A stretch of DNA of 60,690 nucleotides. It comes from an uncultured Gammaproteobacteria bacterium. Lineage in GTDB: Bacteria > Pseudomonadota > Gammaproteobacteria > SZUA-140. The position numbers were made by a program, and so were the translations under genes. The DNA is taken from positions 1 to 60,690 of the forward strand of contig CAYRLE010000001.1 in assembly GCA_964425105.1 (NCBI GenBank), read 5' to 3'. Numbering within the stretch: the first letter of the stretch is position 1; every line of letters begins with the position of its first letter. The notes below the pieces were generated by a model. It searched no databases and was not told where the DNA came from. It saw only the letters and a list, made by a program, of their open reading frames with translations. Positions 38,952-60,690 of this stretch are shown piece after piece.

Positions 38952-39768
38952 CCGTATCATCCTCACCGGCGCCTCCAGCGGCATCGGCCGCGCCCTGGCC
39001 CGGCGCCTGGCGGATGGCGGTGCCCGCCTGTTGCTGATCGGACGCCGACAGGAGGCGCTCAACGAAGTTCGTACGGCACTCGGCGACGGTCACCACACCC
39101 TGGCGGCGGATATCAGCACAGCACAGGGACGCCGTGAGGCGGTGGATGCCTGCCATGCCGTGCTGGGCGGAGTCGACGTACTGATCAACAATGCCGGCAT
39201 TTCCAGCTATGCCCTGTTCGACAGGGAGGATCCGGTGCTCAGCGAGCGCATCATCCAGACCAATCTGATGGCACCTATAGCGCTGACCAGGCAGGTGCTG
39301 CCCACCCTGCTGGCACAGGGGCGGGGGCAGATCGTCAACATCGGTTCCGTCTTCGGTGGCATCGGCTTTGCCTGCTTTGCCAGCTATTCCGCCAGCAAGT
39401 TCGGCCTGCGCGGTTTCTCCGAGGCCCTGCGCCGCGAACTAGAAGGCAGCGGTGTCGGGGTGACCTATGTTGCGCCGCGCGCCACCAGGACGGCCATCAA
39501 CAGCCCCACCGTCTACCGGATGATGGCTGCGTTGAAGATGAATCTCGATACCCCGGAGCAGGTGGCGATGCAGATCACCGCGGCGCTGACGGCACAGCGC
39601 AAAGAACGCTGCCTGGGGTGGCCGGAGAAGTTCTTCGTGCGCGTCAATGCCTTGTGGCCGCGCCTGGTGGACAAGGCCCTGCGCGGCCAGACCCGCGAGA
39701 TGAAGAGGATTTTGCAGGAATCCCCGGCAGGGGAAGACGGCAACGACTCCCAGGTTCGGACGCCCTAG
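38935..39768 (+). CDS. Short-chain dehydrogenase/reductase (SDR)
   Basis: TGASSGIGRALA, NNAG, S..YSASK catalytic motif. ATG 38935 follows GAGGAGG and overlaps the previous gene by 17 nt. Confidence 0.9.
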   Translation: MQLQDSRIILTGASSGIGRALARRLADGGARLLLIGRRQEALNEVRTALGDGHHTLAADISTAQGRREAVDACHAVLGGVDVLINNAGISSYALFDREDPVLSERIIQTNLMAPIALTRQVLPTLLAQGRGQIVNIGSVFGGIGFACFASYSASKFGLRGFSEALRRELEGSGVGVTYVAPRATRTAINSPTVYRMMAALKMNLDTPEQVAMQITAALTAQRKERCLGWPEKFFVRVNALWPRLVDKALRGQTREMKRILQESPAGEDGNDSQVRTP

Positions 39769-40721
39769 CCTGGAAAGAAGTCGATGGGATAGGTGACGCG
39801 GGTGACGGCCACCTCCATGGCGCCGAAGTCGAACATCTTGATGCGCGCCACCAGGCGCCGCTCAAGCTTCGGGTTGTCCAGTTCACTGCTAATGATTTCG
39901 CAGGCGCTGACCTTGCCCTCGGGGCTGATGGTCAATTGCAACACCACCTTGCCCTGCAGGGTGGAGTCGCGGCGCAGGGCGCGGTTGTAGAGGGCGTAGA
40001 GCTTGCCCTTGTTGCGGTCGAACACCAGCTGGATGTCCTCGTCGCTGCGCCGCGGCAGGCCGGCTGCCCCGCTGCGTCCGCTGGTGGGTCGCTGCTCGAT
40101 CTGCGCCAGCTTGCTCTGCACCCGTGACGTCTGATGGCTGCCCACCAGGCGGGTCTTGCCGGTGTCGCGGCTCAGCCGGGCCGTGTCGATGCCGCCGCTG
40201 GTCTGCGTGGCGCGCCGGGTGATGACGGCGCGCTGCACCTTGGGCGCCTTGCCAGCGGTGGATTTCCTCAGGGTCTGTTTGCGCACGCTGGCGATGGCGC
40301 TGTTTTTGCGCAGTGCCGCCAGTTCGCTGCTAAAGGCCAGCAGTCCGGAGCGCGCGGCCTTCTCGCGTGCCGCCGGGCGTGGCTTGGATGCCGGCTTGGG
40401 GGCGGGCTTTTGCGCCTTGGGAGGCTGCTTCTTGGCTGCTGTCTTCTTCTCCACAGGCTTGGGTTGCGGTCTGGGTTCCGGCTTGACCACGGGCATGGGT
40501 GGTGGTGGCGCTTTGTGCGCCATGAGCAGGCGGGCATAGCGTGGCGGCACGGCCGGCGCCAGGTCCTGCAGGGTCTGCGGGACGGGGAGCAGGGGCATCA
40601 CCACGGAGAACAGCAGGGCCAGGGCGGTGACCGCCGCCAGGATGCGCCGGAAACGCTGCTGGTCCTGCGGCGAGGCCGACCAGGGCAAGTCAGCGGCGTG
40701 ATAGAAGACTGTCGCCGTCAT
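39765..40721 (-). CDS. TonB-like energy transducer (AgmX/GltG-like C-terminal domain suspected)
   Basis: N-terminal anchor (ILAAVTALALLFSVVMPLL), a Pro/Lys-rich spacer (PPPPMPVVKPEPRPQPKPVEKK..KPAPKPASKPRP) and a C-terminal TonB_C-like domain (GKVVLQLTISPEGKVSACEIISS..VTYPIDFFP). ATGA overlap with the upstream exbD. Confidence 0.8.
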   Translation of the reverse strand: MTATVFYHAADLPWSASPQDQQRFRRILAAVTALALLFSVVMPLLPVPQTLQDLAPAVPPRYARLLMAHKAPPPPMPVVKPEPRPQPKPVEKKTAAKKQPPKAQKPAPKPASKPRPAAREKAARSGLLAFSSELAALRKNSAIASVRKQTLRKSTAGKAPKVQRAVITRRATQTSGGIDTARLSRDTGKTRLVGSHQTSRVQSKLAQIEQRPTSGRSGAAGLPRRSDEDIQLVFDRNKGKLYALYNRALRRDSTLQGKVVLQLTISPEGKVSACEIISSELDNPKLERRLVARIKMFDFGAMEVAVTRVTYPIDFFPG

Positions 40722-41215
40722 GCCTCTTCTCCGCCTTTCTGCATCACCGCCAACGAGACCTTGCCGTAGCGGGCCAGAGTACAGCTGACCATGACCTTCT
40801 TCAGCAGGCGGTAGGGGATCTCGCGGTCGCCCATGATAGTGACCTCGGGGCCGGCGCCGTCACGGTTCCGCAGGCGGCGGGCGGCCTGTTGTTCCAGTGC
40901 ATCCTGCAGGGCTTTGATGGCCGGGCCGCGCTCCGCCAGGGCCGCGGACACGCTGGCCACCTTGCGGCCCTGCACCAGGATATCCTTGTCGGTGACCAGG
41001 ACCACCACGGTTTCGCGGGGCTTCTCCTCGGCAATGGACTGGGGCAGCTCGATGGTCTTGGCGCTGGGCAATACCTCGACGTCGGAGGAATTCACCAGCA
41101 GGAAGAACACCAGGATGGTGAAGATGTCCATCAGTGACACCAGGTTGAGCGGTGCCGCGCGGCGGTTGCGTTTGTGGTGGCGCGCCATGCGCTGGGCGCG
41201 GCGGGATTTTTCCAT
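40718..41215 (-). CDS. exbD: ExbD/TolR-family protein (second of two paralogs)
   Basis: APLNLVSLMDIFTILVFFLL TM segment and a periplasmic domain. The start ATG sits 5 nt after AGGAGG, which overlaps the upstream TAA stop. Confidence 0.85.
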   Translation of the reverse strand: MEKSRRAQRMARHHKRNRRAAPLNLVSLMDIFTILVFFLLVNSSDVEVLPSAKTIELPQSIAEEKPRETVVVLVTDKDILVQGRKVASVSAALAERGPAIKALQDALEQQAARRLRNRDGAGPEVTIMGDREIPYRLLKKVMVSCTLARYGKVSLAVMQKGGEEA

Positions 41216-41225
41216 GTCCGCCTCC

Positions 41226-41735
41226 TTAGCGTCTGGCTTGTTTGATGGCGGCCGGCGGGGCGTCGCCGATGGAGATATCCGGGAACAGTTCGATCTTGAG
41301 GTGCCGCCCGCCCTGTTCCAGCACGGCCACGCGCACCGTGTCCATGACCTGCACCAGTGCGTCGTAGGGGATCTCGGGTTCCAGGAGCAGGGTGATGTCG
41401 GTCTTCTCCGGGTGTTGCGCCTTGATCTGCTGGAGCAGCGCAGAGACCCTGTCCAGGTCGTAGCCGCCATCCTTTTTTGCCACCACCACGGCGCCGCCGC
41501 CCTGTTGCGCCACCTCGATGGCGTCGCGGCGCAGAATCACTTCCAGGTGCAGGACCGGTTTCTGCGGCGCCGCACCTGCGGCGTCAGCGGGCAGGTTGAG
41601 TTCCAGGATGGCGATGCGCGAGAACACCGCGGTGATGAGCAGGAAGGGCACCAGGATCACCATCAGGTTCATGAAGGCGGTGATGTTCATCTCCGCCGGT
41701 TCCTGGAGGCGGCTGCTGCGCCAGCGGCGGTTCAT
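41226..41735 (-). CDS. exbD: ExbD/TolR-family protein (first of two paralogs)
   Basis: MNITAFMNLMVILVPFLLI TM segment and a periplasmic domain (ITLLLEPEIPYDALVQVMDTV). ATGA overlap with exbB. Confidence 0.85.
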   Translation of the reverse strand: MNRRWRSSRLQEPAEMNITAFMNLMVILVPFLLITAVFSRIAILELNLPADAAGAAPQKPVLHLEVILRRDAIEVAQQGGGAVVVAKKDGGYDLDRVSALLQQIKAQHPEKTDITLLLEPEIPYDALVQVMDTVRVAVLEQGGRHLKIELFPDISIGDAPPAAIKQARR

Positions 41736-42376
41736 CGCGCCGCTTCCGCCCGCTCGGTGACCATGTTGAGGAACTTCACCGAGGCCATCTCCAGGCTGTC
41801 CACCAGTTCCACGGTCTTGGTCTGGAGCACGGTGTGCATGAGCAGCAGGGGAATGGCCACGATGAGGCCGAAGGCGGTGGTGTTCATGGCCACCGAGATG
41901 CTGGCGGAGAGCATGTCGGCCTTCTCTGCGGGGTTGGCCGCCGACACTGCGGTGAAGGCCTGGATCAGGCCGATGATGGTGCCCAGCAGGCCCAGCAGGG
42001 TGGCGATGTTGGCGAAGGTGGCCAGGTAGTGGGTGCGTTTCTCCAGTTGGGGGATGACCTCCATCAGGCCCTCCTCCATGGCGGTGCCGATGTCGTCGCG
42101 GCGCCGCGCCGTGGTGGTGCGGCTCAGGCCGTAGTGGAGCACTTTGCCGATGGCCGTGCTGGACTTGGCCAGCAGGCTCCCGGCCCGCTTGAAGTCACCC
42201 TGGCGTAACAGCGGCTGCAGTGAACTCCACAGCTTGCGGTTGGTGGTGCGCGACAGGGTCAGGTAGACATAGCGTTCCACGGCGATGGCCACGCCCAGGG
42301 CGAGCACCAGCACGATGGGATACATGAACAGTCCGCCGGTCTGGAAGAACTGCACGATGGCGTTGTAGGCGTCCAT
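41732..42376 (-). CDS. exbB: MotA/TolQ/ExbB proton-channel protein
   Basis: Three TM helices, with the conserved C-terminal half (LATFANIATLLGLLGTIIGLIQAF...AMNTTAFGLIVAIP). AAGGAG RBS; starts 3 nt after the upstream stop. Confidence 0.9.
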   Translation of the reverse strand: MDAYNAIVQFFQTGGLFMYPIVLVLALGVAIAVERYVYLTLSRTTNRKLWSSLQPLLRQGDFKRAGSLLAKSSTAIGKVLHYGLSRTTTARRRDDIGTAMEEGLMEVIPQLEKRTHYLATFANIATLLGLLGTIIGLIQAFTAVSAANPAEKADMLSASISVAMNTTAFGLIVAIPLLLMHTVLQTKTVELVDSLEMASVKFLNMVTERAEAAR

Positions 42377-42379: not shown

Positions 42380-42673
42380 TCACTCCTTGCTTGTTTGGCT
42401 GTGGGTTTCACGGTTGAAGGCATTGAAATAGTCCAGCTGGCGGCGCAGAACCTCGCGGTCCACGGGCTCCAGGGCCTGGTCGTAGAGGGTGCTGAAGGGG
42501 CGCACCACCATCTGGCCGGGCTCGGCTTGTTTCCAGGGCACGATGTAGAGCACCTTGGGCAGTTCGCGGTTGCCGATGATGGTGGTGCCTTCCATCTCGA
42601 TGGCATCTCCCGCCAGGGCGGCGCCTGCCAGCAGGGCGCTGCAGAGCAGCAGCGGCGCAGTGAGCAGCTTCAT
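42380..42673 (-). CDS. Small secreted protein (~97 aa) of unknown function, coupled to exbB
   Basis: Signal peptide MKLLTAPLLLCSALLAGAALA. Has an ELPKVLYIVPWK motif. ATGA overlap with the upstream TPR gene. Confidence 0.55.
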   Translation of the reverse strand: MKLLTAPLLLCSALLAGAALAGDAIEMEGTTIIGNRELPKVLYIVPWKQAEPGQMVVRPFSTLYDQALEPVDREVLRRQLDYFNAFNRETHSQTSKE

Positions 42674-43302
42674 GGCTGATTCTCCTCGTTGCGGGCTAGG
42701 GCCTGCAGGCGCTGGCGCAGGTCCACGATCCACAGCTGGATGGTACGCTCTTCCTTCCCGCTGAGTGCCTGGTAGCGCTGATAGTGTTGCAGGGCCAGTG
42801 CAGGCTGCTGCAGATAGAGATCGTAGAGGATGCCCACATTGAGATGGGCGTTGGCGTAGTCCGGGTCCGCCGCCAGGGCCTGTTCATAGGCGCGTCGCGC
42901 TGCCTGGAAGTCTCCACTCTGGCGTTGCAGGATGCCTATCTGGTTGTGGGCGGCGGCCAGCTTGGGGTTGAGGCGCGCGGCCGCCTGCAAGGACGAGAGC
43001 GCCGCAGCGCGTCGTTCCGTGCGTGCATAGATCAGTCCCAGGTTGAAGCGTGGGCCTGCCAGGTCGGGGCGGGCCTGGATCACTGCCTGCAGCGGGGCCT
43101 CGGCGGCGGCGTAATCGCCTGCGGCCATGGCGTCCAGGGCCTGGCGGTATTGCTGCGCCAGGGGAGGCGCCAGGGGCGCCGGCGCGGTGGCCTGCTCCTG
43201 TTCCAGGGGCAGGGTGCTGCAGGCCGTCAGCATCATGATCAGCAGGGCGCTGAAGACAGCCAGGGACGCATGGTGGAAAAACGCAGCGCCGTAATCCACC
43301 AA
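42670..43302 (-). CDS. TPR-repeat lipoprotein
   Basis: Lipobox IMMLTACS and three or four TPR units (RFNLGLIYAR.., AHNQIGILQRQSGDF.AR.AYEQAL..DP.YANAHLNVGILY). TTG 43302 or GTG 43299 after GAGGAA is preferred; the ORF-track ATG 43362 would overlap the upstream gene. Confidence 0.75.
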   Translation of the reverse strand: MVDYGAAFFHHASLAVFSALLIMMLTACSTLPLEQEQATAPAPLAPPLAQQYRQALDAMAAGDYAAAEAPLQAVIQARPDLAGPRFNLGLIYARTERRAAALSSLQAAARLNPKLAAAHNQIGILQRQSGDFQAARRAYEQALAADPDYANAHLNVGILYDLYLQQPALALQHYQRYQALSGKEERTIQLWIVDLRQRLQALARNEENQP

Positions 43303-43315
43303 TAAAATCCGTTCC

Positions 43316-48536: not shown

Positions 48537-48615
48537 GATGGGCCTCGCGGGCTGGTGGCGCATTTCGTGTTATAGAGTTTTTCGGCTGAATGATACTTTG
48601 GCTTGATTGAAAATC

Positions 48616-50365: not shown

Positions 50366-50496
50366 GTAATGAGTGATGCGTGATGAGTAATGAGAGGAAG
50401 AACTGCTTTCCCGCCATGCCATCTGTCCTGTCCCTTCTCATCACCCATCACTCATCACCCATCACTCATTACCCATCACTCATTACTCACGTCACT
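50366..50496. repeat. Heptamer-built hairpin H2 (GT[A/G]ATGA x4 ... T[C/T]AC[C/T]CA x7)
   Basis: Left arm 50366-50393: gtaatga gtgatgc gtgatga gtaatga. Right arm 50441-50489: tcaccca tcactca tcaccca tcactca ttaccca tcactca ttactca. The right arm runs into the stop codon (50492-50494) of the LamG gene. Confidence 0.85.
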
Positions 50497-52984: not shown

Positions 52985-54162
52985 CAATCACCCATGCAGT
53001 AGACGGCGGCCTCGGCGAAGACCTGTTTCAGATTGTAGTTGCTGGCCTTGAAGGATGCGGTGATGGCTGCGATCTTGCTGCGGTCCGCACTGTTGCCTGG
53101 CTCGCGGAAGCACACGGCCTTGAAGACCTTCTTTACCTGGCAGCTGGCGAAGGCCGCGCTGTTCTCCAACTCCATGCCCATGCTCTTGGCGCCCTGGCCG
53201 CTGCCGGTCAGGGCACTGTCCCAGCCCAGCAGGGCATTGGGGCCGCTGCGCCAATAGTTGTCCCAGCGGTCGTCGGGGGTGATGTAGCCGTATTTGAAGT
53301 TGTCGGCGTTGATCAGGTATTTGGGCTGCACTGCGCCGGGGGTGTAGACGAGGCGCCCGGCGTCCTCGTCGTAGTCGTAGTAGGCATAGGCCTGGGTCAG
53401 CGGGTCCATGCCGCTGTGGCAGCCCACGCAGCTGTTGAGAAAGATGCGGCTGTCACCGCCGGGGCTGCGCGAGACGTCCTGGCGTATGCGGTCCGAGGGC
53501 CGGGTGTTGTCCTTGATCTGTTCCAGGTCGGTGCACAAATGGTTGAGCAGGGTGAAGCGGAACATGGCGCGGTTGGTGCCATCGATGAAAAAGGCCTTGG
53601 CGGCGGCGCGGGTGGTCATGACGCCCGCAGTGGCCGCGGCGGGGAGTCCGGTGAGCGCCGACTGGCTGCTGGGCACCAGCATGGCCTTGAGGTCGATGCC
53701 CTGGTTTTCCAGGGCCGCGTAGTGGTCGTTGTTGTCCACGGCATAGGGGGGCAGGCCCAGGGCCGGGTCGCCCACGTAGAGCAGATCAGCGGAGAGCAGG
53801 GTGTTGAAGGGCACGTTGTCGCGGACCATGCCGATCACTGTGGCGGTATAGTCGTTGAGAGGCGCGAAGACGGTCTGTTCCTCATTGGTCCAGGGGGTGA
53901 CGAAATTCTTCAGCGTGACGTTATAGAAGGCGCTGTTCTCCATGGCCGTGAAGGCGGCGTCCTCGGGACGGCCGGCGGCGATGTCCGCGGCCATGGCATC
54001 CAGTACCGCCGCGCTAGGCGGCACGCCGGCAAGGCGGTCGTGGAGACGCTTGGCCTGTTCGCGGTTGCCGGACCAGGCCGGGGAGGCAGCCAGTATCAGC
54101 AGCAAGGCGCTCAGGAAATAAAGCGTCAGGGCCGGCTGTTTGCTTGGTGTCGATGAATTCAT
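52984..54162 (-). CDS. Secreted CxxCH protein, DUF1588/PSD-family-like (Planctomycete-type cytochrome-associated domain)
   Basis: Signal peptide (LTLYFLSALLLILAASPAWS); FIDGTNRAMFRF.LLNHL.C; FLNSCVGCHSGMDPL. ATG at 54162 is chosen; the ORF-track extension to 54399 is not protein-like. Confidence 0.65.
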   Translation of the reverse strand: MNSSTPSKQPALTLYFLSALLLILAASPAWSGNREQAKRLHDRLAGVPPSAAVLDAMAADIAAGRPEDAAFTAMENSAFYNVTLKNFVTPWTNEEQTVFAPLNDYTATVIGMVRDNVPFNTLLSADLLYVGDPALGLPPYAVDNNDHYAALENQGIDLKAMLVPSSQSALTGLPAAATAGVMTTRAAAKAFFIDGTNRAMFRFTLLNHLCTDLEQIKDNTRPSDRIRQDVSRSPGGDSRIFLNSCVGCHSGMDPLTQAYAYYDYDEDAGRLVYTPGAVQPKYLINADNFKYGYITPDDRWDNYWRSGPNALLGWDSALTGSGQGAKSMGMELENSAAFASCQVKKVFKAVCFREPGNSADRSKIAAITASFKASNYNLKQVFAEAAVYCMGD

Positions 54163-54531
54163 GTGTCGTAGTGCTCTATGTTGGGTCCACGTGCGCCATG
54201 GGTTTCCCTGTGTTCTTGTAACGGCCGCTGCGCTTTTCACGCAAGACCGAGGAGTTCCTGCATTATGCAGGAAGCCGGGGAAGTTTTTGTGATTGGCTGC
54301 GCAGTTTGCCCCGTCGCCGCTGGCGGATAATGCAAACAGTGATGCCGTTCTCTCCAGCCAAGCAATCCCCCGGCCGCTGTCATAGAATGGCAGCGGCATG
54401 GCGGCTGGCGCTTATGGAGAAAATCACGCCTCCTCAACGTTAAACAAGCCGAAGTTAGAGATAATCTTGTTTTATTTTGTCTCTATTGCTCATTTGAATT
54501 CTAAGACGGAGATGCCAGCGGATTGGTTGCA
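54163..54531. promoter_or_regulatory. Divergent control region between the minus-strand operon and the beta-propeller gene
   Basis: About 370 nt non-coding between divergently oriented genes. Includes an AT-rich block (54440-54510: gttagagataatcttgttttattttgtctctattgctcatttgaattc). No operator identified. Confidence 0.4.
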
Positions 54532-57120
54532 ATGACGAAGAAATCCGACAGGATACCTGCGGCAATGGCCGTGATTTTGTCGTTTACTGTTTTACTGCTG
54601 GCTGCCTGTGGCGGGGGCGAGGGTGTGGACCCGGTGGTGGAGAATTTCGGCATCGCCTACGTGGTGCGCCCCTTGCCCGAGGATGGCAACAGCGACAGCC
54701 GCGAGTTGTTGGACTTCAAGGCCGGTGGCGATCTCTATTACCGCGACCTGGCCTCGCCGGGAGCCCGTGCGCGCAATATCACCGCAGACGTGACCGGCGG
54801 CCAGGGCGACGTGCGCGACGTGAGCGTCTCCTATGACGGCAGCAGGCTGTTGTTCGCCCTGCGTCTGCCTTCGATCGAGGGCGCCGATCCTGAGGACCAG
54901 CCCACGTGGAACATCTGGGAATACGATATCAGCGAAGACCGCCTGCGGCGCATCATCGCCTCCGATATCACCGCCGAGGCGGGCCAGGACCGCTCCCCCC
55001 AATACCTGCCCGACGGGCGCATCGTCTTCAGTTCCACGCGCCAGCGCCAGGCCAAGGCCACCCTGCTGGACGAAGGCAAGCCCCAGTTCGCGGCCCTGGA
55101 CGAGCGGCGCCGGGAGCCGGCCTTCGTGCTCCATGTGATGGAGGCCGATGGCAGCGATATCCGCCAATTGTCCTTCAATCAGAGCCATGACCTGGACCCG
55201 GTGGTGCTGGCCAGTGGTGAGATTCTCTTCAGCCGTTGGGACAACATGGGAGGGCGCAACCAAGCGAGCCTCTACAAGATCCGGCCCGACGGCACCGGCC
55301 TGGAAGTGGTCTACGGCGCCCACAGCCATGCCGGCGACAGCGGACAGTTGCAGTTCCTGCGTCCCCGGGAAATGCCCGATGGCCGCCTGCTGGCCCTGCT
55401 CAAACCTTTTCGCAGCCCCTATGGCGGCGCCGACCTGATCACCATCGATATTGCCAATTTTGTCGATAATGACCAGCCTGCCGCCGACGGGTCAGCGGGC
55501 GACAGCGCCCAACAGCCGGCCACTATCCTGAAGGTAAGCACCGGCAGCGGCCCATCGGCCGGCGGCCGCTTCAGTGCCGCCTTTCCCCTCTGGGACGGTA
55601 CCGTCCGCGCCTTGGTGAGTTGGACGCCCTGCCGCCTGCAGGCGGTGGATGGCCGCATCCTGCCCTGCACACCGGCACGTCTGGCCGAGCCCGATGTCCA
55701 GGAGGCCCCCCCGCTCTATGGCCTCTATCTCTACAATATGGATGACGACACCCAGGTGCCGCTGCTGGTGCCCCGCGAGGGCGTGATTTACACCGATGTG
55801 GTGGCTGCTCAGCAGCGCCGCCTGCCCGCCATCCTGGCCGATCGCAGCCTGGATGCCGATCTGGCGGAGGAGGGTGCGGGGGTGCTCGACATCCGCAGCG
55901 TCTATGATTTCGACGGTGTCTTCAATGGCCTGGGCGCGGCGGCTGCCGATATCGCCGAACTGGCGGACCCGGCGCGCACCCCGGCCGATGGGCGTCCCGC
56001 GCGCTTTCTGCGGGTGGTGAAGGCGGTGGCCATTCCCGACCGCAATCTGGTGCGGCTGCGGGGCACGGCCTTCGGGCGCAGCAGCCGCCAGCTGATGCGG
56101 GAGATCGTCGCCTACGCACCCATCGAGCCCGACGGCTCGGTGAAGATCAAGGTGCCCGCCAACGTGCCGCTGGCCATCAGCGTCCTGGACAAGGATGGCC
56201 GGCGCATCAGCAACCGCCACCAGAACTGGATCCAGCTGCGCCCTGGCGAGACCGTCACCTGCAACGGCTGCCACGACCACAACAGCGGTATTCCCCACGG
56301 CACCCCGCGGGGACCCGCGGCCCTCAACAGCGGCGCCGCCACCACGGGCCTGCCCTTTCCCAACACCGACCCCGCCCTGTTCGCCGACATGGGTGAGACC
56401 ATGGCCGAGACCCGCACCCGGCTGGATGCCGCGGCGCTGACGCCCAGCGTCGACCTGGTCTATGAGGATGTCTGGACGGATGAGACGGCAGCGGGGCGGG
56501 GCAAAGACACGCCTTTCGCCTACCGCTACGGCGACCTGGCCACCCCGGCGCCGGCGCCGTCCGCCTGCCAGACGGCCTGGAGCCCGGCCTGCCGCATCGT
56601 GATCCATTACGAGACCCACATCCACCCACTGTGGGGCCGGGACCGCGGCGCCGATACCTGCACCCTGTGCCATGGCAGCCGCGACGCCATGGACAATCTG
56701 CAGGTGCCGGCAGCGCAACTAGACCTCAGTGACGGCGCCTCCAGCGACCAGCCCGCTCATTTCACCTCTTATCGGGAACTACTGTTCAACGACAATGAGC
56801 AGGAGATCGTCATGGGCGCCCTGCAGGACCGCCTGGTGCAGGCCACCGACGGCAACGGCAATCCCTTGTTCGAGACCGACGAGAACGGCGATCTCATCCT
56901 CGATGCCGCAGACAATCCCATTCCAGTGATGGTGACCGTCACCGTGCGCCCGGTGATGTCCACGGCTGGCGCTTTAGCCAGCAGCCGTTTCTTCGAGCTC
57001 TTCGCTCCCGGCGCCAGCCATGCCGGGCGCCTGGAGCCGGCGGAATTGCGCCTCATCGCCGAGTGGCTGGACATCGGAGCCCAGTACTACAATGACCCCT
57101 TTGCCGTGCCGCCGCCTTGA
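54532..57120 (+). CDS. Lipoprotein: TolB/PD40-like beta-propeller + C-terminal region with two CxxCH motifs (hydrazine-synthase-alpha 'middle domain'-like architecture)
   Basis: Lipobox LLLAACGG. PD40-like repeats (VSYDGSRLLFA; PQYLPDGRIVFSS; ILFSRWDN; YKIRPDGTGLEVV). CNGCH and CTLCH lie in the last ~280 aa. Confidence 0.75.
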   Translation: MTKKSDRIPAAMAVILSFTVLLLAACGGGEGVDPVVENFGIAYVVRPLPEDGNSDSRELLDFKAGGDLYYRDLASPGARARNITADVTGGQGDVRDVSVSYDGSRLLFALRLPSIEGADPEDQPTWNIWEYDISEDRLRRIIASDITAEAGQDRSPQYLPDGRIVFSSTRQRQAKATLLDEGKPQFAALDERRREPAFVLHVMEADGSDIRQLSFNQSHDLDPVVLASGEILFSRWDNMGGRNQASLYKIRPDGTGLEVVYGAHSHAGDSGQLQFLRPREMPDGRLLALLKPFRSPYGGADLITIDIANFVDNDQPAADGSAGDSAQQPATILKVSTGSGPSAGGRFSAAFPLWDGTVRALVSWTPCRLQAVDGRILPCTPARLAEPDVQEAPPLYGLYLYNMDDDTQVPLLVPREGVIYTDVVAAQQRRLPAILADRSLDADLAEEGAGVLDIRSVYDFDGVFNGLGAAAADIAELADPARTPADGRPARFLRVVKAVAIPDRNLVRLRGTAFGRSSRQLMREIVAYAPIEPDGSVKIKVPANVPLAISVLDKDGRRISNRHQNWIQLRPGETVTCNGCHDHNSGIPHGTPRGPAALNSGAATTGLPFPNTDPALFADMGETMAETRTRLDAAALTPSVDLVYEDVWTDETAAGRGKDTPFAYRYGDLATPAPAPSACQTAWSPACRIVIHYETHIHPLWGRDRGADTCTLCHGSRDAMDNLQVPAAQLDLSDGASSDQPAHFTSYRELLFNDNEQEIVMGALQDRLVQATDGNGNPLFETDENGDLILDAADNPIPVMVTVTVRPVMSTAGALASSRFFELFAPGASHAGRLEPAELRLIAEWLDIGAQYYNDPFAVPPP

Positions 57121-57217: not shown

Positions 57218-57955
57218 ATGCAAATCCCTGCCTTGTTATTGATGATGGCATTGTGCCTGGCGACGAACGCCTTGGCTGCCAAGCCAGCAGTGGAAGCGGA
57301 AGTGGCGGACCCCTATCTGGAACTGCACACCGGGCCGGGCGCGGCCTATCCGGTTTTCTATGTGGTGGAGCGAGGCAGCAAGGTGCGCATCCTCAAGCGC
57401 CGCACTGGCTGGTTCAAGGTGCGCAGCGCCAAGGGCAAGGAGGGCTGGGCCGCGCGCAGCGACATGGAGCAGACACTGCTGGCCGCCGGCGTCCCCTTGC
57501 GCATCGCGGAGCCGGGGCGTGGCGAATTCAGCGCCCGGCGCTGGGAGATGGGAGTCCTGGGCGGCGATTTCGAAGGAGCCGACTCCATCACCCTGTATGG
57601 CGGCTATGCCTTCAATGCCAATTTGTCGGCGGAGTTATCAGTGGCACAGATACTGGGAGATTTTTCGGACAGCATCCTGGCGAATGTCAATGTGCTGGTC
57701 CAGCCCTTCCCCCGCTGGCGGGCCTCGCCCTTTTTCACCCTGGGCACGGGGGTCATCGACACCAATGCCCGCAAGACCGTGGTGGAGGCCCAGGACAGCA
57801 CGGACCAGGTCAGTCACGTGGGGGCAGGCCTGCGGGCCTATCTGGGGCGGCGCTTCATCTTCCGCGCCGAATACAGGAATTACGTGATCTTCACCAGTAG
57901 AGACGACAACAAGGAAATCGACGAATGGCGCGCTGGCTTCGCATTCTTTTTCTGA
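57218..57955 (+). CDS. Outer-membrane protein: N-terminal bacterial SH3 domain + C-terminal beta-barrel
   Basis: Signal peptide; SH3b-like (LELHTGPGAAYPVFYVVERGSKVRILKRRTGWFKVRSAKGKEGWA). Alternating-strand C-terminal half ending ..WRAGFAFFF (aromatic OMP terminus). Confidence 0.7.
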   Translation: MQIPALLLMMALCLATNALAAKPAVEAEVADPYLELHTGPGAAYPVFYVVERGSKVRILKRRTGWFKVRSAKGKEGWAARSDMEQTLLAAGVPLRIAEPGRGEFSARRWEMGVLGGDFEGADSITLYGGYAFNANLSAELSVAQILGDFSDSILANVNVLVQPFPRWRASPFFTLGTGVIDTNARKTVVEAQDSTDQVSHVGAGLRAYLGRRFIFRAEYRNYVIFTSRDDNKEIDEWRAGFAFFF

Positions 57956-58581
57956 AACGCTTTGCCGCTGAATTTGGGGCGGGGCTGGCGTTATTGCTGT
58001 TGGTGGCGCCGGCACTGGCCGGGCAGGAGCAAGTCATCGAACCGCAGTTGGAGCGCCGCGACATCAACGTGCCGAAGATCGACAGCGAGAATTTCGAGAT
58101 CGGCCTCTTCGGCGGCGTCATGAGCGTGGAGGACTTCGGCACCAGCCCGGTCTATGGCGCGCGCGCGGCCTATCACGTCACCACGGGCTTGTTCGTGGAG
58201 GCCGCCTACGGGCGCACCGACACCGATGAGACCAGCTACGAGAAACTCAGCGGGGGCGCCAAACTGCTCACCGACAGCGAGCGCCAGTTGAGTTATTACA
58301 ACTTCTCTTTGGGTTACAATCTGCTGCCGGGAGAGACCTTCCTCACCCGCAGGCTCGCCTTCACTTCCGATTTCTATGTCATCGCAGGTATCGGCAGCAC
58401 CGACTTCGCCGGCGATCAGCGCTTTACCGTCAACTACGGCGCCGGCTACCGGCTGCTGGCCACGGACTGGCTGGCGGTCCATGTGGATGTCCGCGACCAC
58501 TTGTTCGATTCGGACCTGCTGGGTGAGACCAAGACTACGCACAATATTGAGATCAGTGGCGGACTGACGGTCTTTTTTTGA
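57925..58581 (+). CDS. Outer-membrane beta-barrel domain protein
   Basis: Signal peptide (LALLLLVAPALA), beta-strand periodicity and the terminal ..EISGGLTVFF. Overlaps the previous gene by 31 nt. Confidence 0.7.
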   Translation: MARWLRILFLKRFAAEFGAGLALLLLVAPALAGQEQVIEPQLERRDINVPKIDSENFEIGLFGGVMSVEDFGTSPVYGARAAYHVTTGLFVEAAYGRTDTDETSYEKLSGGAKLLTDSERQLSYYNFSLGYNLLPGETFLTRRLAFTSDFYVIAGIGSTDFAGDQRFTVNYGAGYRLLATDWLAVHVDVRDHLFDSDLLGETKTTHNIEISGGLTVFF

Positions 58582-58665: not shown

Positions 58666-58680
58666 CGCGAGTATCAACAG

Positions 58681-59202
58681 ATGAGGTGTCACATGAATTT
58701 ACGAATGAACAAACTGGCAGGCTATATCCTGCTCCTTGTGGCCATGCTGCTGCTGGCAGGCGCTGCCGTAGCCAAGGAGGTCTCGGGCCCGGCCCCTGAC
58801 TTCACCCTCAAGAGCCGCGGCGGCGAGAACCTCAAGCTCAGCGAATTCCGCGGTGAGGTGGTGATGATCAACTTCTGGGCCTCCTGGTGCGGTCCCTGCC
58901 GCAAGGAGATGCCCCTCCTGGATCAGCTCTACCAGCGCTATCATCCCCTGGGCTTCACCATTCTCGGTGTCAACGTGGAAGAGGATTCGGAAGAGGCATT
59001 GCGCCTGTTGAAGGAAATCCCCGTGACCTTCCCCATTCTCTTCGATCGCGACAACAAGGTTTCGGAGACCTATGAACTGGTGGCCATGCCCACCACGGTG
59101 ATGGTGGACCGCGACGGCAACATGCGTTTCGTCCACCTCGGCTATGTCCCCGGCTACGAACGGGAATACGAAGCCCAGATCAAGGCCCTGATCCGGGAGT
59201 GA
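58681..59202 (+). CDS. TlpA/ResA-family periplasmic thiol:disulfide oxidoreductase
   Basis: Signal anchor, thioredoxin fold and the active site WASWCGPCRKEMP. ATG 58693 is an alternative start. Confidence 0.85.
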   Translation: MRCHMNLRMNKLAGYILLLVAMLLLAGAAVAKEVSGPAPDFTLKSRGGENLKLSEFRGEVVMINFWASWCGPCRKEMPLLDQLYQRYHPLGFTILGVNVEEDSEEALRLLKEIPVTFPILFDRDNKVSETYELVAMPTTVMVDRDGNMRFVHLGYVPGYEREYEAQIKALIRE

Positions 59203-59420
59203 GCATGCGCCCCGTATTCCTGCTTGTGATGTTGCTGCTACTGGGAGGCTGCGGAATCAAGCCCTGGGTGAAACCCTACGAGCGTCACCGGCTGGCGGAC
59301 CCCATCATGAGTTTCAGCCGCGATCCGGTGTCCACGGCCTATAGCAACCACGTCTACGAGGCCCGCGAAGGGGCGCGCGGCGCAGAAGGCAGCCAGGGTG
59401 GGGGTTGTGGCTGCAATTAG
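59199..59420 (+). CDS. DUF4266 lipoprotein
   Basis: Lipobox LLLLGGCG and the family-typical C-terminus GGGCGCN. ATGA-type overlap with tlpA. Confidence 0.75.
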   Translation: MSMRPVFLLVMLLLLGGCGIKPWVKPYERHRLADPIMSFSRDPVSTAYSNHVYEAREGARGAEGSQGGGCGCN

Positions 59421-60552
59421 GGGCAGACACCTGCTGGCGGGCCTGCTGGCGGCCCAGGGGTTGCTGGTGCCCCTGCTAGCGGCCGTGCTCCCCGAGGACC
59501 GCGCCGACGCCCTCTATCATTCTTATGATGGCGGCGGGGTGGAGGTCAACGGTCCGTCCATTTTGCTGCGCAAGCAAGTGGGCAAGTACAGTTCCTTTTC
59601 CGCCAACTACTATGTCGATTCCATCACCAGCGCCTCCATCGACGTGGTGACCGCCGCCAGTCCTTACGAGGAGCAGCGGGTGGAGAAGAGCATCGGCGGC
59701 GATTTCCTGTTCGACAAGACCATCATGAGCCTGGGTTTCACCAGCAGCGAGGAAAACGACTTCGATGCCAAGTCCGCCGCCTTCAGCATCAGCCAGGACC
59801 TGTTCGGCGACCTCACCACCGTCACCCTGGGCTATGTGCGCGGCTGGGACAAGATCGGCAAGCGCGGCGACCCGGCCTTCTCGGAAGACGCCGACAGCCA
59901 GCGCTACCGCATCGGCATCAGCCAGATCTTCACCAAGAACCTGATCGTGGCCCTGAACTTCGAGACGGTCACCGACGAGGGCTTCCTCAACAACCCGTAC
60001 CGCTCGGTGCGCTTCCGAGACCCTGGCAGCGCCCTGGGTTACAGCTTCGAGCCCGAGGTCTATCCCCGCACCCGCACCAGCAACGCCATCGCCCTGCGCA
60101 GCCGCTACTATCTGCCCTACCGCGCATCGCTGCTGGGGGAATACCGCTACTACAACGACAGCTGGGGCATCGGCGCCCACAACATCGGCCTGGGTTACAC
60201 CCACGCCTGGCGCGAGCACTGGCTGTTCGACCTCAAGTACCGCTACTACACCCAGGGCCACGCCGACTTCTACAGCGACCTCTTTCCCTACAGCCAAGCC
60301 CAGAACTTCCTGGCCCGCGACAAGGAGTTGAGCCGCTTCAGCAGCCACACGCTGGGCTTCGCCCTGAGCTATGAAGTCAGCCCCAAGGACTGGAGTTTCA
60401 TCGATCGCGGCAGCGTGAATCTTTCGTATGACCGCATCTTTTTCGACTACGACGACTTCCGCGACCTCACCAGTGGCGGCAGCGCCGGGCAGGAGTCACT
60501 CTACAGTTTCAATGCCGACGTGCTGCAGCTGTATATTTCCCTTTGGTATTAG
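59398..60552 (+). CDS. DUF3570 protein (predicted outer-membrane beta-barrel)
   Basis: N-terminal ..DRADALYHSYDGGGVEVNGPS.., Y/F-rich alternating strands and the terminal ..LQLYISLWY. The DUF4266-DUF3570 pairing is typical. Confidence 0.75.
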   Translation: MGVVAAIRGRHLLAGLLAAQGLLVPLLAAVLPEDRADALYHSYDGGGVEVNGPSILLRKQVGKYSSFSANYYVDSITSASIDVVTAASPYEEQRVEKSIGGDFLFDKTIMSLGFTSSEENDFDAKSAAFSISQDLFGDLTTVTLGYVRGWDKIGKRGDPAFSEDADSQRYRIGISQIFTKNLIVALNFETVTDEGFLNNPYRSVRFRDPGSALGYSFEPEVYPRTRTSNAIALRSRYYLPYRASLLGEYRYYNDSWGIGAHNIGLGYTHAWREHWLFDLKYRYYTQGHADFYSDLFPYSQAQNFLARDKELSRFSSHTLGFALSYEVSPKDWSFIDRGSVNLSYDRIFFDYDDFRDLTSGGSAGQESLYSFNADVLQLYISLWY

Positions 60553-60588
60553 GCAGCAAGCATTGTATGACGGGGATCAAATACCTCC

Positions 60589-60613
60589 GTAGAGTGGGCG
60601 CCGCCCACCAAGA
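60589..60613. repeat. REP-like 25-nt element (GTAG + palindrome), copy 2
   Basis: GTAGAGTGGGCGCCGCCCACCAAGA. GTGGGCG/CGCCCAC is a perfect 7-bp inverted repeat. 23 of 25 nt are identical to 29976-30000. Confidence 0.6.
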
Positions 60614-60623
60614 GCTTGTTTAT

Positions 60624-60690
60624 CGTGAGGAGTAAGGTATGAGGGGTGAGGCACGGAATCAGCTCACGATCACCCCTCACCCCTCACCCC
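60624..60690. repeat. Heptamer-built hairpin H4 (NNT[G/A]AGG x4 ... TCACCCC x3, cut by window edge)
   Basis: Left arm: cgtgagg agtaagg tatgagg ggtgagg. Right arm: ctcacga tcacccc tcacccc tcacccc. Same arm order as H1-H3. Confidence 0.8.

What the first reader, a model, noticed from the sequence alone, without database searches (positions are those of the whole stretch)
39765..60690. A ~21-kb all-envelope supercluster: PMF motor + TPR scaffold + CxxCH/DUF1501 exported module + paired OM barrels + thiol-redox trio
Seen in the sequence:
- From 54162 down to 39765, twelve minus-strand genes form one array with overlapping or near-abutting stop/start codons.
- From 54532 to 60552, six plus-strand genes diverge from the same ~370-nt control region.
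- Every product carries a signal peptide, lipobox, Tat signal, TM anchor or OMP-type C-terminal aromatic residue.
- The usual customers of a TonB-ExbBD set are absent from the window: there is no TonB-dependent receptor, siderophore gene or ABC importer.

Inference: these genes encode one trans-envelope apparatus of unknown function. It would comprise an inner-membrane proton-channel motor, a periplasm-spanning TPR scaffold, redox or heme-type exported proteins, and OM barrels.

I do not recognise this combination as a characterised system. This is the best candidate in the window for something undescribed.
Basis: partly seen in the sequence, partly recalled or inferred. Interest (0 to 1): 0.85.

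Follow-up and report, generated by a model that had tools for sequence, protein, structure and literature searches.

The report
Glt-type envelope motor plus haem module
The 21-kb region joins a known but functionally unsolved envelope motor (the gammaproteobacterial "core complex" ancestral to Myxococcus gliding) to a conserved nine-gene set of exported haem proteins, a Tat-exported enzyme, two outer-membrane barrels and a thiol/flavin redox trio, which supplies candidate partners for a motor whose role is still unknown.

Summary
There are 12 minus-strand and 6 plus-strand genes, and every product has an export or membrane signal.

**Block A (39765-47997)** is not undescribed. Gene for gene it matches the Agl/Glt "core complex" of Luciano et al. 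2011: a TonB-like GltG, two ExbD-like proteins, an ExbB-like protein, an extra small gene, and three TPR proteins. Its function is still unknown. A very conserved 191-aa periplasmic protein (p191) always abuts it in the sampled loci.

**Block B (48695-60552)** is a separate nine-gene unit:
- a Tat-exported protein, probably of the alkaline-phosphatase superfamily, with two CxxCH proteins
- a lipoprotein resembling hydrazine synthase alpha, with two outer-membrane barrels
- TlpA, DUF4266 and DUF3570

**Linkage.** In 65 of 70 informative loci from many gammaproteobacterial lineages, B elements lie next to p191 and the core, in three gene orders. B also occurs intact without the core in four Alteromonadales genomes, and the core occurs without B in five loci.

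**Best reading.** This is a modular association in which the proton-driven motor probably acts on the outer-membrane end of the redox module. That coupling is inferred, not shown. I rate it a new variant of a known kind, of moderately high interest.

The parts
39765..40721 (-). GltG-type TonB-like energy transducer, 318 aa: N-terminal TM anchor, Pro/Lys-rich linker, C-terminal AgmX/PglI-type domain
   Evidence: NCBIfam NF033768 scores 68.1 bits against a cut-off of 40, with partial GltJ/GltG matches. Pfam TonB_C scores 21.2, below its 24.6 cut-off. It sits in the same position as MXAN_4867 homologues in Luciano Table S3. Present in 49 of 52 loci.
40718..41212 (-). ExbD/TolR-like stator subunit in the AglS position, 164 aa
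   Evidence: Pfam ExbD, 62.8 bits. The TM Asp is invariant in 44 of 44 homologues.
41226..41735 (-). ExbD/TolR-like stator subunit in the AglQ position, 169 aa
   Evidence: Pfam ExbD, 59.3 bits. The TM Asp position is Asn here and in 23 of 48 homologues.
41732..42376 (-). MotA/TolQ/ExbB proton-channel subunit in the AglR position, 214 aa
   Evidence: Pfam MotA_ExbB, 99 bits. TolQ and ExbB equivalog scores fall far below their cut-offs.
42380..42673 (-). s97, a small secreted protein. It corresponds to the 'additional gene' of the gammaproteobacterial core that has no Myxococcus homologue.
   Evidence: No Pfam or NCBIfam match. It lies between aglR and gltE, like the locus tags skipped in Luciano Table S3. 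Present in 52 of 52 loci.
42670..43362 (-). TPR lipoprotein, 230 aa, in the GltE position
   Evidence: TPR families. Weak GltE/Tgl/NlpI matches below cut-off. Size and order match MXAN_4869 homologues of 190-225 aa.
43316..46114 (-). Large TPR lipoprotein, 932 aa, in the GltD position
   Evidence: Multiple TPR, YbgF and BamD-like repeats. Matches the size and order of MXAN_4870 homologues (964 aa in Teredinibacter). Present in 52 of 52 loci.
46111..47997 (-). TPR protein, 628 aa, in the GltC position
   Evidence: TPR_16. Matches MXAN_2541 homologues (640 aa). Adjacent to p191 in all 80 loci.
47988..48563 (-). p191, a secreted protein with a long helix and a beta-sandwich domain. It is very conserved and always sits next to the GltC-like gene in the sampled loci.
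   Evidence: More than 7,887 homologues; the 120 listed are 58-91% identical over the aligned part and belong to no family. AF2 model pLDDT 82.9. No specific PDB fold match. At least 578 species in GTDB representatives.
48695..50293 (-). Tat532, a Tat-exported and extremely conserved protein, probably a metal enzyme of the alkaline-phosphatase superfamily
   Evidence: - 75-77% identical in Alteromonadales and in the Riftia symbiont.
- No Pfam or PDB sequence match, even with profiles.
- Conserved motifs: an invariant DYH, a GG pair and an [ST]DG motif, plus Asp-containing motifs that are nearly invariant.
- Every Foldseek hit is in the alkaline-phosphatase superfamily, but the hits are weak and the model is poor.
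50492..52987 (-). LamG831, a lipoprotein with two CxxCH motifs, conserved Cys pairs and a LamG (Laminin_G_3) domain
   Evidence: Pfam Laminin_G_3, 81.5 bits. Both CxxCH motifs and the lipobox Cys are invariant in 35 of 35 homologues.
52984..54162 (-). c392, a secreted protein with one CxxCH motif
   Evidence: CxxCH is invariant in 34 of 34 homologues. The DUF1585 match is weak only (E 0.0095). It overlaps the LamG831 start by 4 nt.
54163..54522 (.). Divergent intergenic region. It holds a conserved block with the inverted repeat GCATTAT...ATAATGC at 54260-54333, possibly back-to-back -10 elements or an operator.
   Evidence: The pattern is unique in the window, with 0 matches in 100 shuffles. 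The block is partly conserved in L004, L014 and L020. The promoter scan found no strong sigma-70 site here.
54523..57120 (+). HZS865, a lipoprotein with hydrazine-synthase-alpha-like architecture: a likely beta-propeller region (inferred), the HZS_alpha middle domain and two CxxCH motifs. The start is probably 54532 or 54565.
   Evidence: Pfam HZS_alpha, 57.9 bits. Three colinear segments align to 5c2v_A. Both CxxCH motifs are invariant in 43 of 43 homologues. JGI calls the start at 54565.
57218..57955 (+). SH3-OMP: a periplasmic SH3 domain followed by a small outer-membrane beta-barrel
   Evidence: Pfam SH3_3 at 45.2 bits and OMP_b-brl at 35.5 bits. The TIGR04565 match is weak, 30 bits against a cut-off of 60.
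57925..58581 (+). OMP218, a small outer-membrane beta-barrel of the TIGR04565 'OMP_myx_plus' family
   Evidence: TIGR04565 scores 173.5 bits against a cut-off of 60. Its start overlaps the end of the SH3-OMP gene by 31 nt.
58681..59202 (+). TlpA/ResA-type periplasmic thiol-disulfide oxidoreductase
   Evidence: Pfam Redoxin at 101.9 bits; ResA and TlpA NCBIfam matches. A TlpA-like gene lies upstream of p191 in 47 of 54 loci.
59205..59420 (+). DUF4266, a small lipoprotein ending in GGGCGCN (a CXC motif)
   Evidence: Pfam DUF4266 on the JGI gene call. The C-terminus is conserved in 7 of 7 homologues.
59398..60552 (+). DUF3570 protein, with a C-terminal aromatic residue. The family is a known ApbE flavinylation substrate.
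   Evidence: Pfam DUF3570, 129.5 bits. The motif region reads TSAS/TAAS instead of [S/T]GA[S/T]. There is no ApbE in the window or the next 8 kb.

Best explanation
The region consists of two conserved, separable envelope modules that are usually kept side by side.

**Block A (39765-48563).** This is the gammaproteobacterial Agl/Glt-type 'core complex'. It comprises:
- an inner-membrane proton channel (one ExbB/AglR-like and two ExbD/AglQS-like subunits)
- a GltG-type TonB-like transducer that spans the periplasm
- three TPR proteins (GltE-, GltD- and GltC-like) that would form a periplasmic and outer-membrane-proximal scaffold
- two small conserved periplasmic proteins, s97 and p191

**Block B (48695-60552).** This is a nine-gene exported redox/enzyme unit:
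- B1: a Tat-exported, probably alkaline-phosphatase-superfamily enzyme with two CxxCH proteins, one of them a LamG lipoprotein
- B2: a di-CxxCH lipoprotein resembling hydrazine synthase alpha, with a pair of small outer-membrane barrels, one carrying a periplasmic SH3 domain and the other of the TIGR04565 type
- B3: TlpA, DUF4266 and DUF3570, the thiol/flavin electron-relay trio

**Proposed working (inferred).**
1. The motor converts proton flow into movement of the TonB-like protein.
2. Guided by the TPR scaffold, the TonB-like protein engages the barrel pair. This mirrors the proposed engagement of the GltA/B/H/K outer-membrane platform and its lipoprotein CglB by AglRQS-GltG/J in Myxococcus.
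3. That engagement positions, exposes or gates the haem lipoproteins and the Tat enzyme at the outer membrane.
4. TlpA, DUF4266 and DUF3570 supply reducing equivalents to the many CxxCH and Cys-pair sites or to the enzyme.

**Shown:** the family assignments, the gene order and the conserved linkage. **Inferred:** the physical coupling of A to B, haem attachment, and the catalytic chemistry.
For: **Identity of block A.**
- ExbB and ExbD domains.
- AgmX/PglI C-terminal domain above cut-off.
- Gene order and protein sizes match Tgr7_0536-0543, TERTU_374x and CJA_331x in Luciano Table S3, including the skipped extra gene.
- Order is invariant in 49-52 of 52 loci.

**Block B is a unit.**
- It has the same nine genes in the same order in four Alteromonadales genomes with unrelated flanks.
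- Five CxxCH motifs, the lipobox Cys residues and both Tat arginines are invariant or nearly so in 34-43 homologues.
- HZS865 is colinear with HZS-alpha.
- Tat532 has conserved Asp/His-containing motifs (invariant DYH, GG and [ST]DG), and all its Foldseek hits fall in the alkaline-phosphatase superfamily.
- The DUF3570/DUF4266/thioredoxin(/ApbE) module is known from PMC8238504, and ApbE lies next to p191 in 14 loci.

**A-B coupling.**
- B elements are adjacent to p191 and the core in 65 of 70 informative loci, in three different arrangements. The lineages include Steroidobacteraceae, Acidiferrobacterales, Chromatiales, Thiohalomonadales, Cellvibrionales and Halieaceae.
- The only outer-membrane barrels in the cluster are in B, and one belongs to TIGR04565 'OMP_myx_plus'.
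- The core proteins contain almost no Cys. The TlpA that almost always sits beside them therefore probably serves B-type proteins.
Against: - B is complete without an adjacent core in four Alteromonadales genomes. The core lacks B within 10 kb in five loci. In three loci the motor genes are not next to the TPR genes.
- Gaps of 131, 198 and 360 nt allow separate transcription.
- The 80 loci are the nearest relatives of this p191, so the linkage frequency may not hold across all of the at least 578 species.
- No interaction, haem or activity data exist.
- Homology of the two barrels to Myxococcus GltA/GltB was not tested. Luciano et al. reported GltA/B as restricted to Myxococcales and Bdellovibrionales.
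- The Tat532 model is poor (pLDDT 43.6).
Confidence: 0.55

Rival explanations
1. Adjacent but functionally independent systems. The Glt-type core does a general envelope job, such as Tol-like maintenance or polymer transport. Block B is a self-sufficient periplasmic and outer-membrane redox enzyme system. Their adjacency reflects shared ancestry or co-regulation of envelope genes, not physical coupling.
For: - Each block exists alone.
- The B1 trio exists alone in a distant lineage.
- Intergenic gaps of 131-360 nt separate the blocks.
- The literature treats the core as a standalone machinery (PMC3858216).
Against: - Adjacency is kept through three distinct rearrangements in several orders.
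- The core itself encodes no outer-membrane barrel and almost no Cys, yet it is nearly always flanked by TlpA and by the barrel pair.
Confidence: 0.25
2. One reading: all 18 genes encode one obligate, previously undescribed trans-envelope apparatus.
For: All products are exported or membrane proteins. The sub-blocks are linked in 65 of 70 loci.
Against: - The motor plus TPR half was described in 2011.
- The blocks are separable in nature.
- ApbE is variably present, and the position of the B3 trio shifts between arrangements.
Confidence: 0.12
3. An ordinary TonB-ExbB-ExbD nutrient-uptake energiser whose TonB-dependent receptors lie elsewhere, with the TPR genes and block B as bystanders.
For: - TIGR01352 tonB_Cterm scores 30.9 bits against a cut-off of 27.1.
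- In Alteromonas sp. M12 a TonB-dependent receptor gene follows block B, and in Aliiglaciecola a TPR+TonB_C gene does.
Against: - ExbB, ExbD, TolQ and TolR equivalog scores are far below their cut-offs.
- The C-terminal domain scores best as the AgmX/PglI type.
- The products scanned in the window (one search lists the ORFs; scan 23 of the 28 upstream of 39765) and the gene calls for the 8 kb beyond it show no receptor.
- The nine-gene order with three TPR proteins is invariant and matches the Glt core.
Confidence: 0.05

Closest known systems
Agl-Glt / Agl-Nfs machinery of Myxococcus xanthus and its seven-gene 'core complex' in Gammaproteobacteria (Luciano et al. 2011, PMC3169522; Wartel et al. 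2013, PMC3858216)
   Same: - It has the same gene set and order: a GltG-like TonB-type protein, two TolR/ExbD-like proteins, a TolQ/ExbB-like protein, an extra small gene, and TPR proteins of about 200, 950 and 640 aa.
- The published examples, like this window, come from gammaproteobacteria with no reported gliding, and the function is unknown.
   Different: - Here, and in most related loci, the core is flanked by p191, a TlpA-like gene, a small-barrel pair and haem/Tat proteins. The papers I could read mention none of these.
- There is no cytoplasmic FHA or GYF/ZnR domain on the TonB-like protein, and no GltF/H/I/J/K or CglB.
TonB-ExbB-ExbD and Tol-Pal systems
   Same: An inner-membrane proton-channel stator with a Pro-rich periplasm-spanning transducer that has a TonB_C-like domain.
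   Different: - Two different ExbD paralogues are present, one with Asn at the TM Asp site.
- No TonB-dependent receptor, TolA, TolB or Pal was found among the products scanned in the window.
- Equivalog models score far below their cut-offs.
ApbE / DUF3570 / DUF4266 / thioredoxin-like extracytosolic electron-transfer module (Meheust et al. 2021, PMC8238504)
   Same: DUF3570, DUF4266 with a C-terminal CXC motif, and a thioredoxin-fold protein lie side by side.
   Different: - ApbE is absent from this window and the next 8 kb.
- The motif region reads TSAS/TAAS rather than [S/T]GA[S/T].
- The trio is embedded in a larger conserved nine-gene block.
Hydrazine synthase alpha subunit (PDB 5c2v) and the 'HZS_alpha domain-containing' proteins of non-anammox bacteria
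   Same: The HZS_alpha middle domain scores above the Pfam cut-off. The match is colinear along the chain, and there are two CxxCH sites.
   Different: - It is a lipoprotein.
- There is no beta/gamma subunit partner, and the host is not an anammox organism.
- No homologue outside anammox bacteria has an experimentally confirmed function (PMC12758564).
Planctomycete-type pairs of a Tat-exported DUF1501/DUF1552 protein with a CxxCH 'PSCyt/PSD' protein (recalled from memory, not tested)
   Same: A Tat-exported, probably alkaline-phosphatase-superfamily protein is encoded next to large secreted CxxCH proteins, one with a LamG domain. c392 has a weak DUF1585 match.
   Different: - The DUF1501 and DUF1552 HMMs do not match Tat532 or its distant relatives.
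- The sequence family is distinct, with 1,511 clusters at 50% identity.

Membership tests
Agl/Glt core complex (Luciano 2011) | One TolQ/ExbB-like gene (AglR) and two TolR/ExbD-like genes (AglQ, AglS) encoded together | tested here: met
   MotA_ExbB at 99 bits and two ExbD matches at 62.8 and 59.3 bits. The genes overlap or abut.
Agl/Glt core complex (Luciano 2011) | A GltG-type TonB-like bitopic protein with the AgmX/PglI C-terminal domain | tested here: met
   NF033768 scores 68.1 bits against a cut-off of 40. The GltG and GltJ equivalogs match only over the C-terminal part, as expected for a shorter protein.
Agl/Glt core complex (Luciano 2011) | Three TPR proteins homologous to GltE, GltD and GltC, in one locus with the motor | tested here: inconclusive
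   The TPR content, sizes (230, 932, 628 aa) and order match the listed gammaproteobacterial homologues. I made no direct comparison with the Myxococcus sequences. The GltE model matches only at 42.8 bits against a cut-off of 225.
Agl/Glt core complex (Luciano 2011) | An additional small gene, absent from Myxococcales, between aglR and gltE | tested here: met
   s97 at 42380-42673 is present in 52 of 52 loci.
GltA/GltB-type outer-membrane barrels | Homology to Myxococcus GltA/GltB/NfsA/NfsB | not tested
   OMP218 meets TIGR04565 'OMP_myx_plus' at 173.5 bits against a cut-off of 60. I could not obtain the Myxococcus sequences. That TIGR04565 contains GltA/B is only my inference from its name.
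Canonical TonB-ExbBD uptake system | ExbB, ExbD and TonB equivalog-level similarity, plus a cognate TonB-dependent receptor | tested here: not met
   ExbB scores 38 against 206, ExbD 24.8 against 153, and TonB at most 26 against at least 265. The products scanned in the window and the gene calls for the 8 kb beyond it show no Plug or TonB_dep_Rec protein.
Tol-Pal | TolQ and TolR equivalogs with TolA, TolB, Pal and CpoB | tested here: not met
   TolQ scores 62 against 221 and TolR at most 28.5 against 127. TolB scores 16 against 343 on HZS865.
   There is no match for the window protein, for 24 close homologues, or for 34 relatives that are 29-58% identical, up to E = 1-10. Only weak fold-level support exists for the wider alkaline-phosphatase superfamily.
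ApbE-DUF3570 flavinylation module (Meheust 2021) | DUF3570, DUF4266 and a thioredoxin-like gene together | tested here: met
ApbE-DUF3570 flavinylation module (Meheust 2021) | A cognate ApbE gene and [S/T]GA[S/T] flavinylation motifs | tested here: not met
   There is no ApbE in the 60.7-kb window or the 8 kb beyond it. The motif region reads TSAS/TAAS. Related loci do carry ApbE next to p191 (14 of 54), and they show the same S-for-G variant.
Hydrazine synthase | An alpha subunit together with beta/gamma subunits, in an anammox context | tested here: not met
   Only the alpha-like architecture is present. No neighbouring gene resembles the beta/gamma subunits.
c-type cytochrome (for HZS865, LamG831, c392) | Covalent haem at CxxCH | not testable with these tools
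   All five CxxCH motifs are invariant in C, C and H while the middle residues vary. Haem staining or mass spectrometry is needed.

The most novel reading that the evidence does not exclude
The Glt-type core motor of Gammaproteobacteria is the dedicated energiser of a widespread, undescribed outer-membrane redox machine. It would use proton-motive force, through the TonB-like protein, the TPR scaffold and the small barrel pair, to expose or operate haem lipoproteins and an alkaline-phosphatase-superfamily enzyme at the cell surface. That would give the ancestral function from which Myxococcus gliding and spore-coat assembly evolved.
Probability: 0.25. Interest if true: 0.85.

Novelty: new variant of a known kind. 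Interest (0 to 1): 0.6.

Why it matters
The function of the gammaproteobacterial Agl/Glt 'core complex' has been open since 2011, and the field describes it as a standalone machine with unknown cargo.

This window and 65 related loci show that the core usually sits beside a fixed set of exported proteins. These include the only outer-membrane barrels in the neighbourhood, three proteins with conserved CxxCH motifs, a Tat-exported enzyme that is about 75% identical across orders, and a thiol/flavin relay.

That converts a question with no handle into specific experiments in culturable bacteria:
- Relatives of Cellvibrio and Halieaceae carry both blocks.
- Alteromonas and Paraglaciecola carry block B without an adjacent core.

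It also flags two large unannotated families that current annotation misnames 'AraC family' and 'GspF':
- p191, found in at least 578 species
- Tat532, with 1,511 clusters at 50% identity

Tried and rejected
- **DUF1501 identity of Tat532.** Rejected by HMM on the protein, its close homologues and its distant homologues. Profile searches against PDB sequences also found nothing.
- **AF2 model of Tat532.** An alignment of 25 sequences gave pLDDT 43.6. The Foldseek result is therefore only a hint, although all 50 listed top hits fall in one superfamily.
- **p191 fold.** The model is good, but only generic beta-sandwich matches appeared, none at E below 1e-3.
- **c392 and LamG831 against PDB sequences.** Nothing meaningful.
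- **Tol-Pal or classic TonB system.** Equivalog scores are far below their cut-offs.
- **Metagenome scan with the divergent Tat alignment.** I sampled distant relatives through contig look-ups instead.
- **RNA elements.** No Rfam family and no tRNA in the window.
- **Promoter scan.** No convincing sigma-70 site in the divergent region.
- **Alternative cargo in core-only loci.** Their upstream genes are unrelated housekeeping genes: TamAB, AcrB, kinases.
- **Literature searches.** Nothing for TIGR04565, for DUF1501+DUF1553, or for any paper linking the core to these neighbours.

Full report
**1. Observation**

The window is a 63% GC metagenomic contig, and a JGI contig carries the same genes. 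ORF listing and translation confirm 12 minus-strand genes from 54162 down to 39765 and six plus-strand genes up to 60552. The six include a 71-aa ORF at 59205-59420.

The nine genes from 39765 to 48563 overlap or abut, with gaps of -47 to +13 nt. Gaps of 131, 198 and 360 nt follow p191, Tat532 and c392. The minus-strand array is therefore probably more than one transcription unit.

Every product has a signal peptide, lipobox, Tat motif, TM anchor or OMP-type C-terminus. The lipobox cysteines and the Tat arginine pair are conserved in homologues.

Among the 28 ORFs called upstream of 39765, the 23 products I scanned are ligA, sensor kinases, a GGDEF-EAL protein, a TRAP transporter, an ABC-F ATPase, a lytic transglycosylase and a haemolysin/acyl-ligase cluster, plus six proteins with no Pfam match. 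They include no TonB-dependent receptor, siderophore gene or ABC importer. Five shorter ORFs were not scanned. The gene calls for the 8 kb beyond the window end show none either.

**2. The motor and TPR half is a known gene cluster**

- Pfam finds one MotA/ExbB and two ExbD proteins, plus TPR repeats in three proteins.
- NCBIfam places the C-terminus of the TonB-like protein in NF033768, the AgmX/PglI C-terminal domain. It scores 68.1 bits against a cut-off of 40, with partial GltG and GltJ matches.
- The ExbB, ExbD, TolQ, TolR and TonB equivalogs all score far below their cut-offs.

Luciano et al. 2011 (PMC3169522) described a 'core complex' clustered in gamma- and betaproteobacteria, Geobacter and Fibrobacter. 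[quoted passage not shown]

Their Table S3 lists the order for Thioalkalivibrio, Teredinibacter and Cellvibrio:
1. a TonB-like protein
2. AglS
3. AglQ
4. AglR
5. a skipped locus tag
6. a TPR protein of about 190-225 aa
7. a TPR protein of about 964 aa
8. a TPR protein of about 640 aa

That is exactly the arrangement in window 39765-47997, with s97 as the skipped gene. Later papers still call this core a standalone machinery of unknown function and cargo.

**3. p191**

The 191-aa gene that follows the GltC-like gene has no family assignment. It nevertheless has more than 7,887 homologues; the 120 listed are 58-91% identical over the aligned part. NCBI often names it 'AraC family transcriptional regulator'.

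A confident model (pLDDT 82.9) shows a signal peptide, a long helix and a beta-sandwich, with no specific structural match.

**4. Comparative genomics**

A scan of one genome per species with the p191 alignment matched at least 578 species. I kept the best 80 loci, each with 10-kb flanks. All are gammaproteobacterial MAGs or genomes, from Steroidobacteraceae, Acidiferrobacterales, Chromatiales, Ectothiorhodospiraceae, Thiohalomonadales, Cellvibrionales, Halieaceae and others.

tblastn with all window proteins shows the core order is invariant:
- TPR genes and s97 in 52 of 52 loci with enough downstream sequence
- motor and TonB-like genes in 49 of 52

Upstream of p191, among 54 loci with at least 9 kb of sequence:

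| Gene | Loci with it |
|---|---|
| HZS865-like | 49 |
| LamG831-like and c392-like | 43 |
| Tat532-like | 37 |
| TlpA-like | 47 |
| ApbE | 14 |

ApbE was identified by Pfam at 273.8 bits.

Three arrangements occur among 70 informative loci:

| Arrangement | Loci |
|---|---|
| Window-like divergent layout | 11 |
| Same layout, with a TlpA gene between Tat532 and p191 | 37 |
| Co-directional HZS-OMP-OMP-TlpA-DUF4266-DUF3570-(ApbE)-p191 | 17 |
| No block B genes within 10 kb | 5 |

In the five loci without B, the neighbours are unrelated: TamAB, AcrB and kinases. Linkage that survives rearrangement across several orders argues for a functional connection. The caveat is that these are the 80 nearest relatives of this p191.

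**5. Block B is an autonomous unit**

Tat532 homologues that are 75-77% identical occur in Alteromonas sp. M12, Aliiglaciecola lipolytica, Paraglaciecola and Neptunicella. In all four, the nine genes appear exactly as in the window: DUF3570, DUF4266, TlpA, OMP, SH3-OMP and HZS on one strand, diverging from c392, LamG and Tat.

In those genomes the next genes differ, and none is p191 or a Glt core gene. They are:
- a TonB-dependent receptor (Alteromonas sp. M12)
- a TPR+TonB_C protein (Aliiglaciecola)
- a PBP-family gene and an AraC-type regulator gene (Paraglaciecola)
- a 490-aa protein with no family match, then DUF4198, ApbE-DUF2271 and a TonB-dependent receptor further on (Neptunicella)

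The Riftia symbiont has LamG-Tat532-p191-GltC, like the window.

A distant Tat532 relative (35-39% identity) sits in a four-gene operon. The operon encodes a c392-like CxxCH protein and two lipoproteins that correspond to the C- and N-terminal parts of LamG831. No HZS, OMP, TlpA or motor gene is nearby.

The hierarchy is therefore:
- B1 (c392, LamG and Tat) as a minimal unit
- B (B1 with B2 and B3) as a nine-gene unit
- A plus B as the common but not obligatory super-arrangement

**6. What the B proteins are**

- **HZS865.** It carries the HZS_alpha middle domain (57.9 bits) and aligns colinearly in three segments with hydrazine synthase alpha, 5c2v_A. No homologue outside anammox bacteria has a known function.
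- **CxxCH motifs.** The five motifs in HZS865, LamG831 and c392 are invariant in C, C and H across 34-43 homologues, while the middle residues vary. Several further Cys pairs are also invariant. This fits real haem sites and disulfides.
- **Tat532.** It matches no Pfam model or PDB sequence, even with profiles or through relatives at about 30% identity. Its family has 1,511 clusters at 50% identity.
  - Conserved motifs are an invariant DYH (as GG[YFC]DYH in most members), a GG pair in D..GG and an [ST]DG motif, plus [FIV]D..GG and S..D[TS]..N, whose Asp residues are nearly invariant.
  - The AF2 model is poor (pLDDT 43.6).
  - All 50 listed top Foldseek hits are nonetheless alkaline-phosphatase-superfamily enzymes, at weak scores: E at least 0.028 and TM about 0.15.
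  - I read it as a probable metal enzyme of that superfamily. This is the superfamily I recall DUF1501 belonging to, but Tat532 is not a DUF1501 member.
- **OMP218** meets TIGR04565 'OMP_myx_plus' at 173.5 bits against a cut-off of 60. **SH3-OMP** combines an SH3 domain with a small barrel.
- **TlpA, DUF4266 and DUF3570** are the module that Meheust et al. 2021 tie to ApbE flavinylation and DsbD-fed extracytosolic electron transfer. Here ApbE is missing locally, and the motif region reads TSAS/TAAS.

**7. Mechanism**

*Established from family knowledge.* ExbB/ExbD-type stators convert proton flow into conformational work on a TonB-like partner. In Myxococcus, AglR binds GltG, and the Agl motor is proposed to connect to an outer-membrane complex that contains the CglB adhesin.

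*Inferred here.* The core proteins contain no outer-membrane barrel and almost no cysteine. Yet they are nearly always flanked by a TlpA-type reductase and by the barrel pair with its haem lipoproteins. I therefore propose that the barrel pair is the outer-membrane docking site of the motor and TPR scaffold. The motor would position, expose or gate the B lipoproteins and enzyme, while the thiol/flavin trio feeds reducing equivalents to them.

I put about 0.55 on the composite description, with a real A-B functional link. I put about 0.25 on the specific surface-exposure or energisation mechanism.

The main rival, at 0.25, is independent systems kept adjacent. It is supported by the fact that each block exists alone.

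**8. Verdict**

The system is a new variant of a known kind. The core is a described cluster of unknown function. Its regular association with p191 and the nine-gene haem, Tat, OMP and thiol module appears unreported in the literature I could search.

Interest is 0.6. The association is widespread and very conserved, and it makes a 15-year-old open question experimentally approachable. Nothing here shows function.

Noticed in passing
window 41226-41735 (-) versus 40718-41212 (-): The two ExbD-like paralogues differ at the TM protonatable position. The AglS-position subunit keeps Asp in 44 of 44 homologues. The AglQ-position subunit has Asn in the window and in 23 of 48 homologues, and Asp in the rest. 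This suggests a stator with only one proton-carrying subunit type in about half the lineages.
   Followed up: partly
window 59398-60552 (+); loci L013, L025, L043, L044 and others: This DUF3570 subfamily has [ST][SG]A[ST] (mostly SSAS or TSAS) where the published flavinylation motif is [S/T]GA[S/T]. The variant also occurs in loci that have ApbE next door. The window itself has no ApbE in 60.7 kb or in the 8 kb beyond.
   Followed up: partly
window 54260-54333: An inverted repeat GCATTAT-N60-ATAATGC lies inside a block of the divergent intergenic region, and the block is partly conserved in L004, L014 and L020. It is unique in the window, with 0 matches in 100 shuffles. It could be back-to-back -10 elements or an operator.
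   Followed up: partly
window 47988-48563 and 48695-50293: Public annotation names p191 homologues 'AraC family transcriptional regulator' and Tat532 homologues 'general secretion pathway protein GspF'. Both are secreted proteins with no such domains, so these look like propagated misannotations.
   Followed up: yes
L020, L033, L041: In three related loci the TPR genes and s97 are present, but the ExbB, ExbD and TonB-like genes are not found downstream. The motor can therefore be unlinked from its scaffold.
   Followed up: no
L001 12824-14911 (about 0.3-2.3 kb beyond the window end): Two adjacent FGE-sulfatase (formylglycine-generating-enzyme family) genes follow DUF3570. After them come a Spond_N protein, a two-component system, a PLD-type protein and UbiB. 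This is possibly relevant if Tat532 is sulfatase-like, but these genes are not conserved in other loci.
   Followed up: no
window 3213-5867 (-), 14924-15889 (-), 17942-19342 (+), 21108-22445 (-), 34505-35539 (+): Five sizeable ORFs, including one of 884 aa, have no Pfam match at E <= 1e-5. The ORF at 17942-19342 sits beside an LPP20-lipoprotein gene at 19339-20358.
   Followed up: no
window 35964-39768 (+): A co-directional cluster encodes a thermostable-haemolysin-family protein, an AMP-binding ligase, a haem-oxygenase-like (Haem_oxygenas_2) protein and a short-chain dehydrogenase. It converges on the end of the TonB-like gene and marks the left boundary of the envelope cluster.
   Followed up: no
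L091 15752-19755 (Neptunicella): An ApbE-DUF2271 fusion, a DUF4198 protein and a TonB-dependent receptor lie a few kb downstream of block B. This is a second flavinylation-type system near B in that genome.
   Followed up: no
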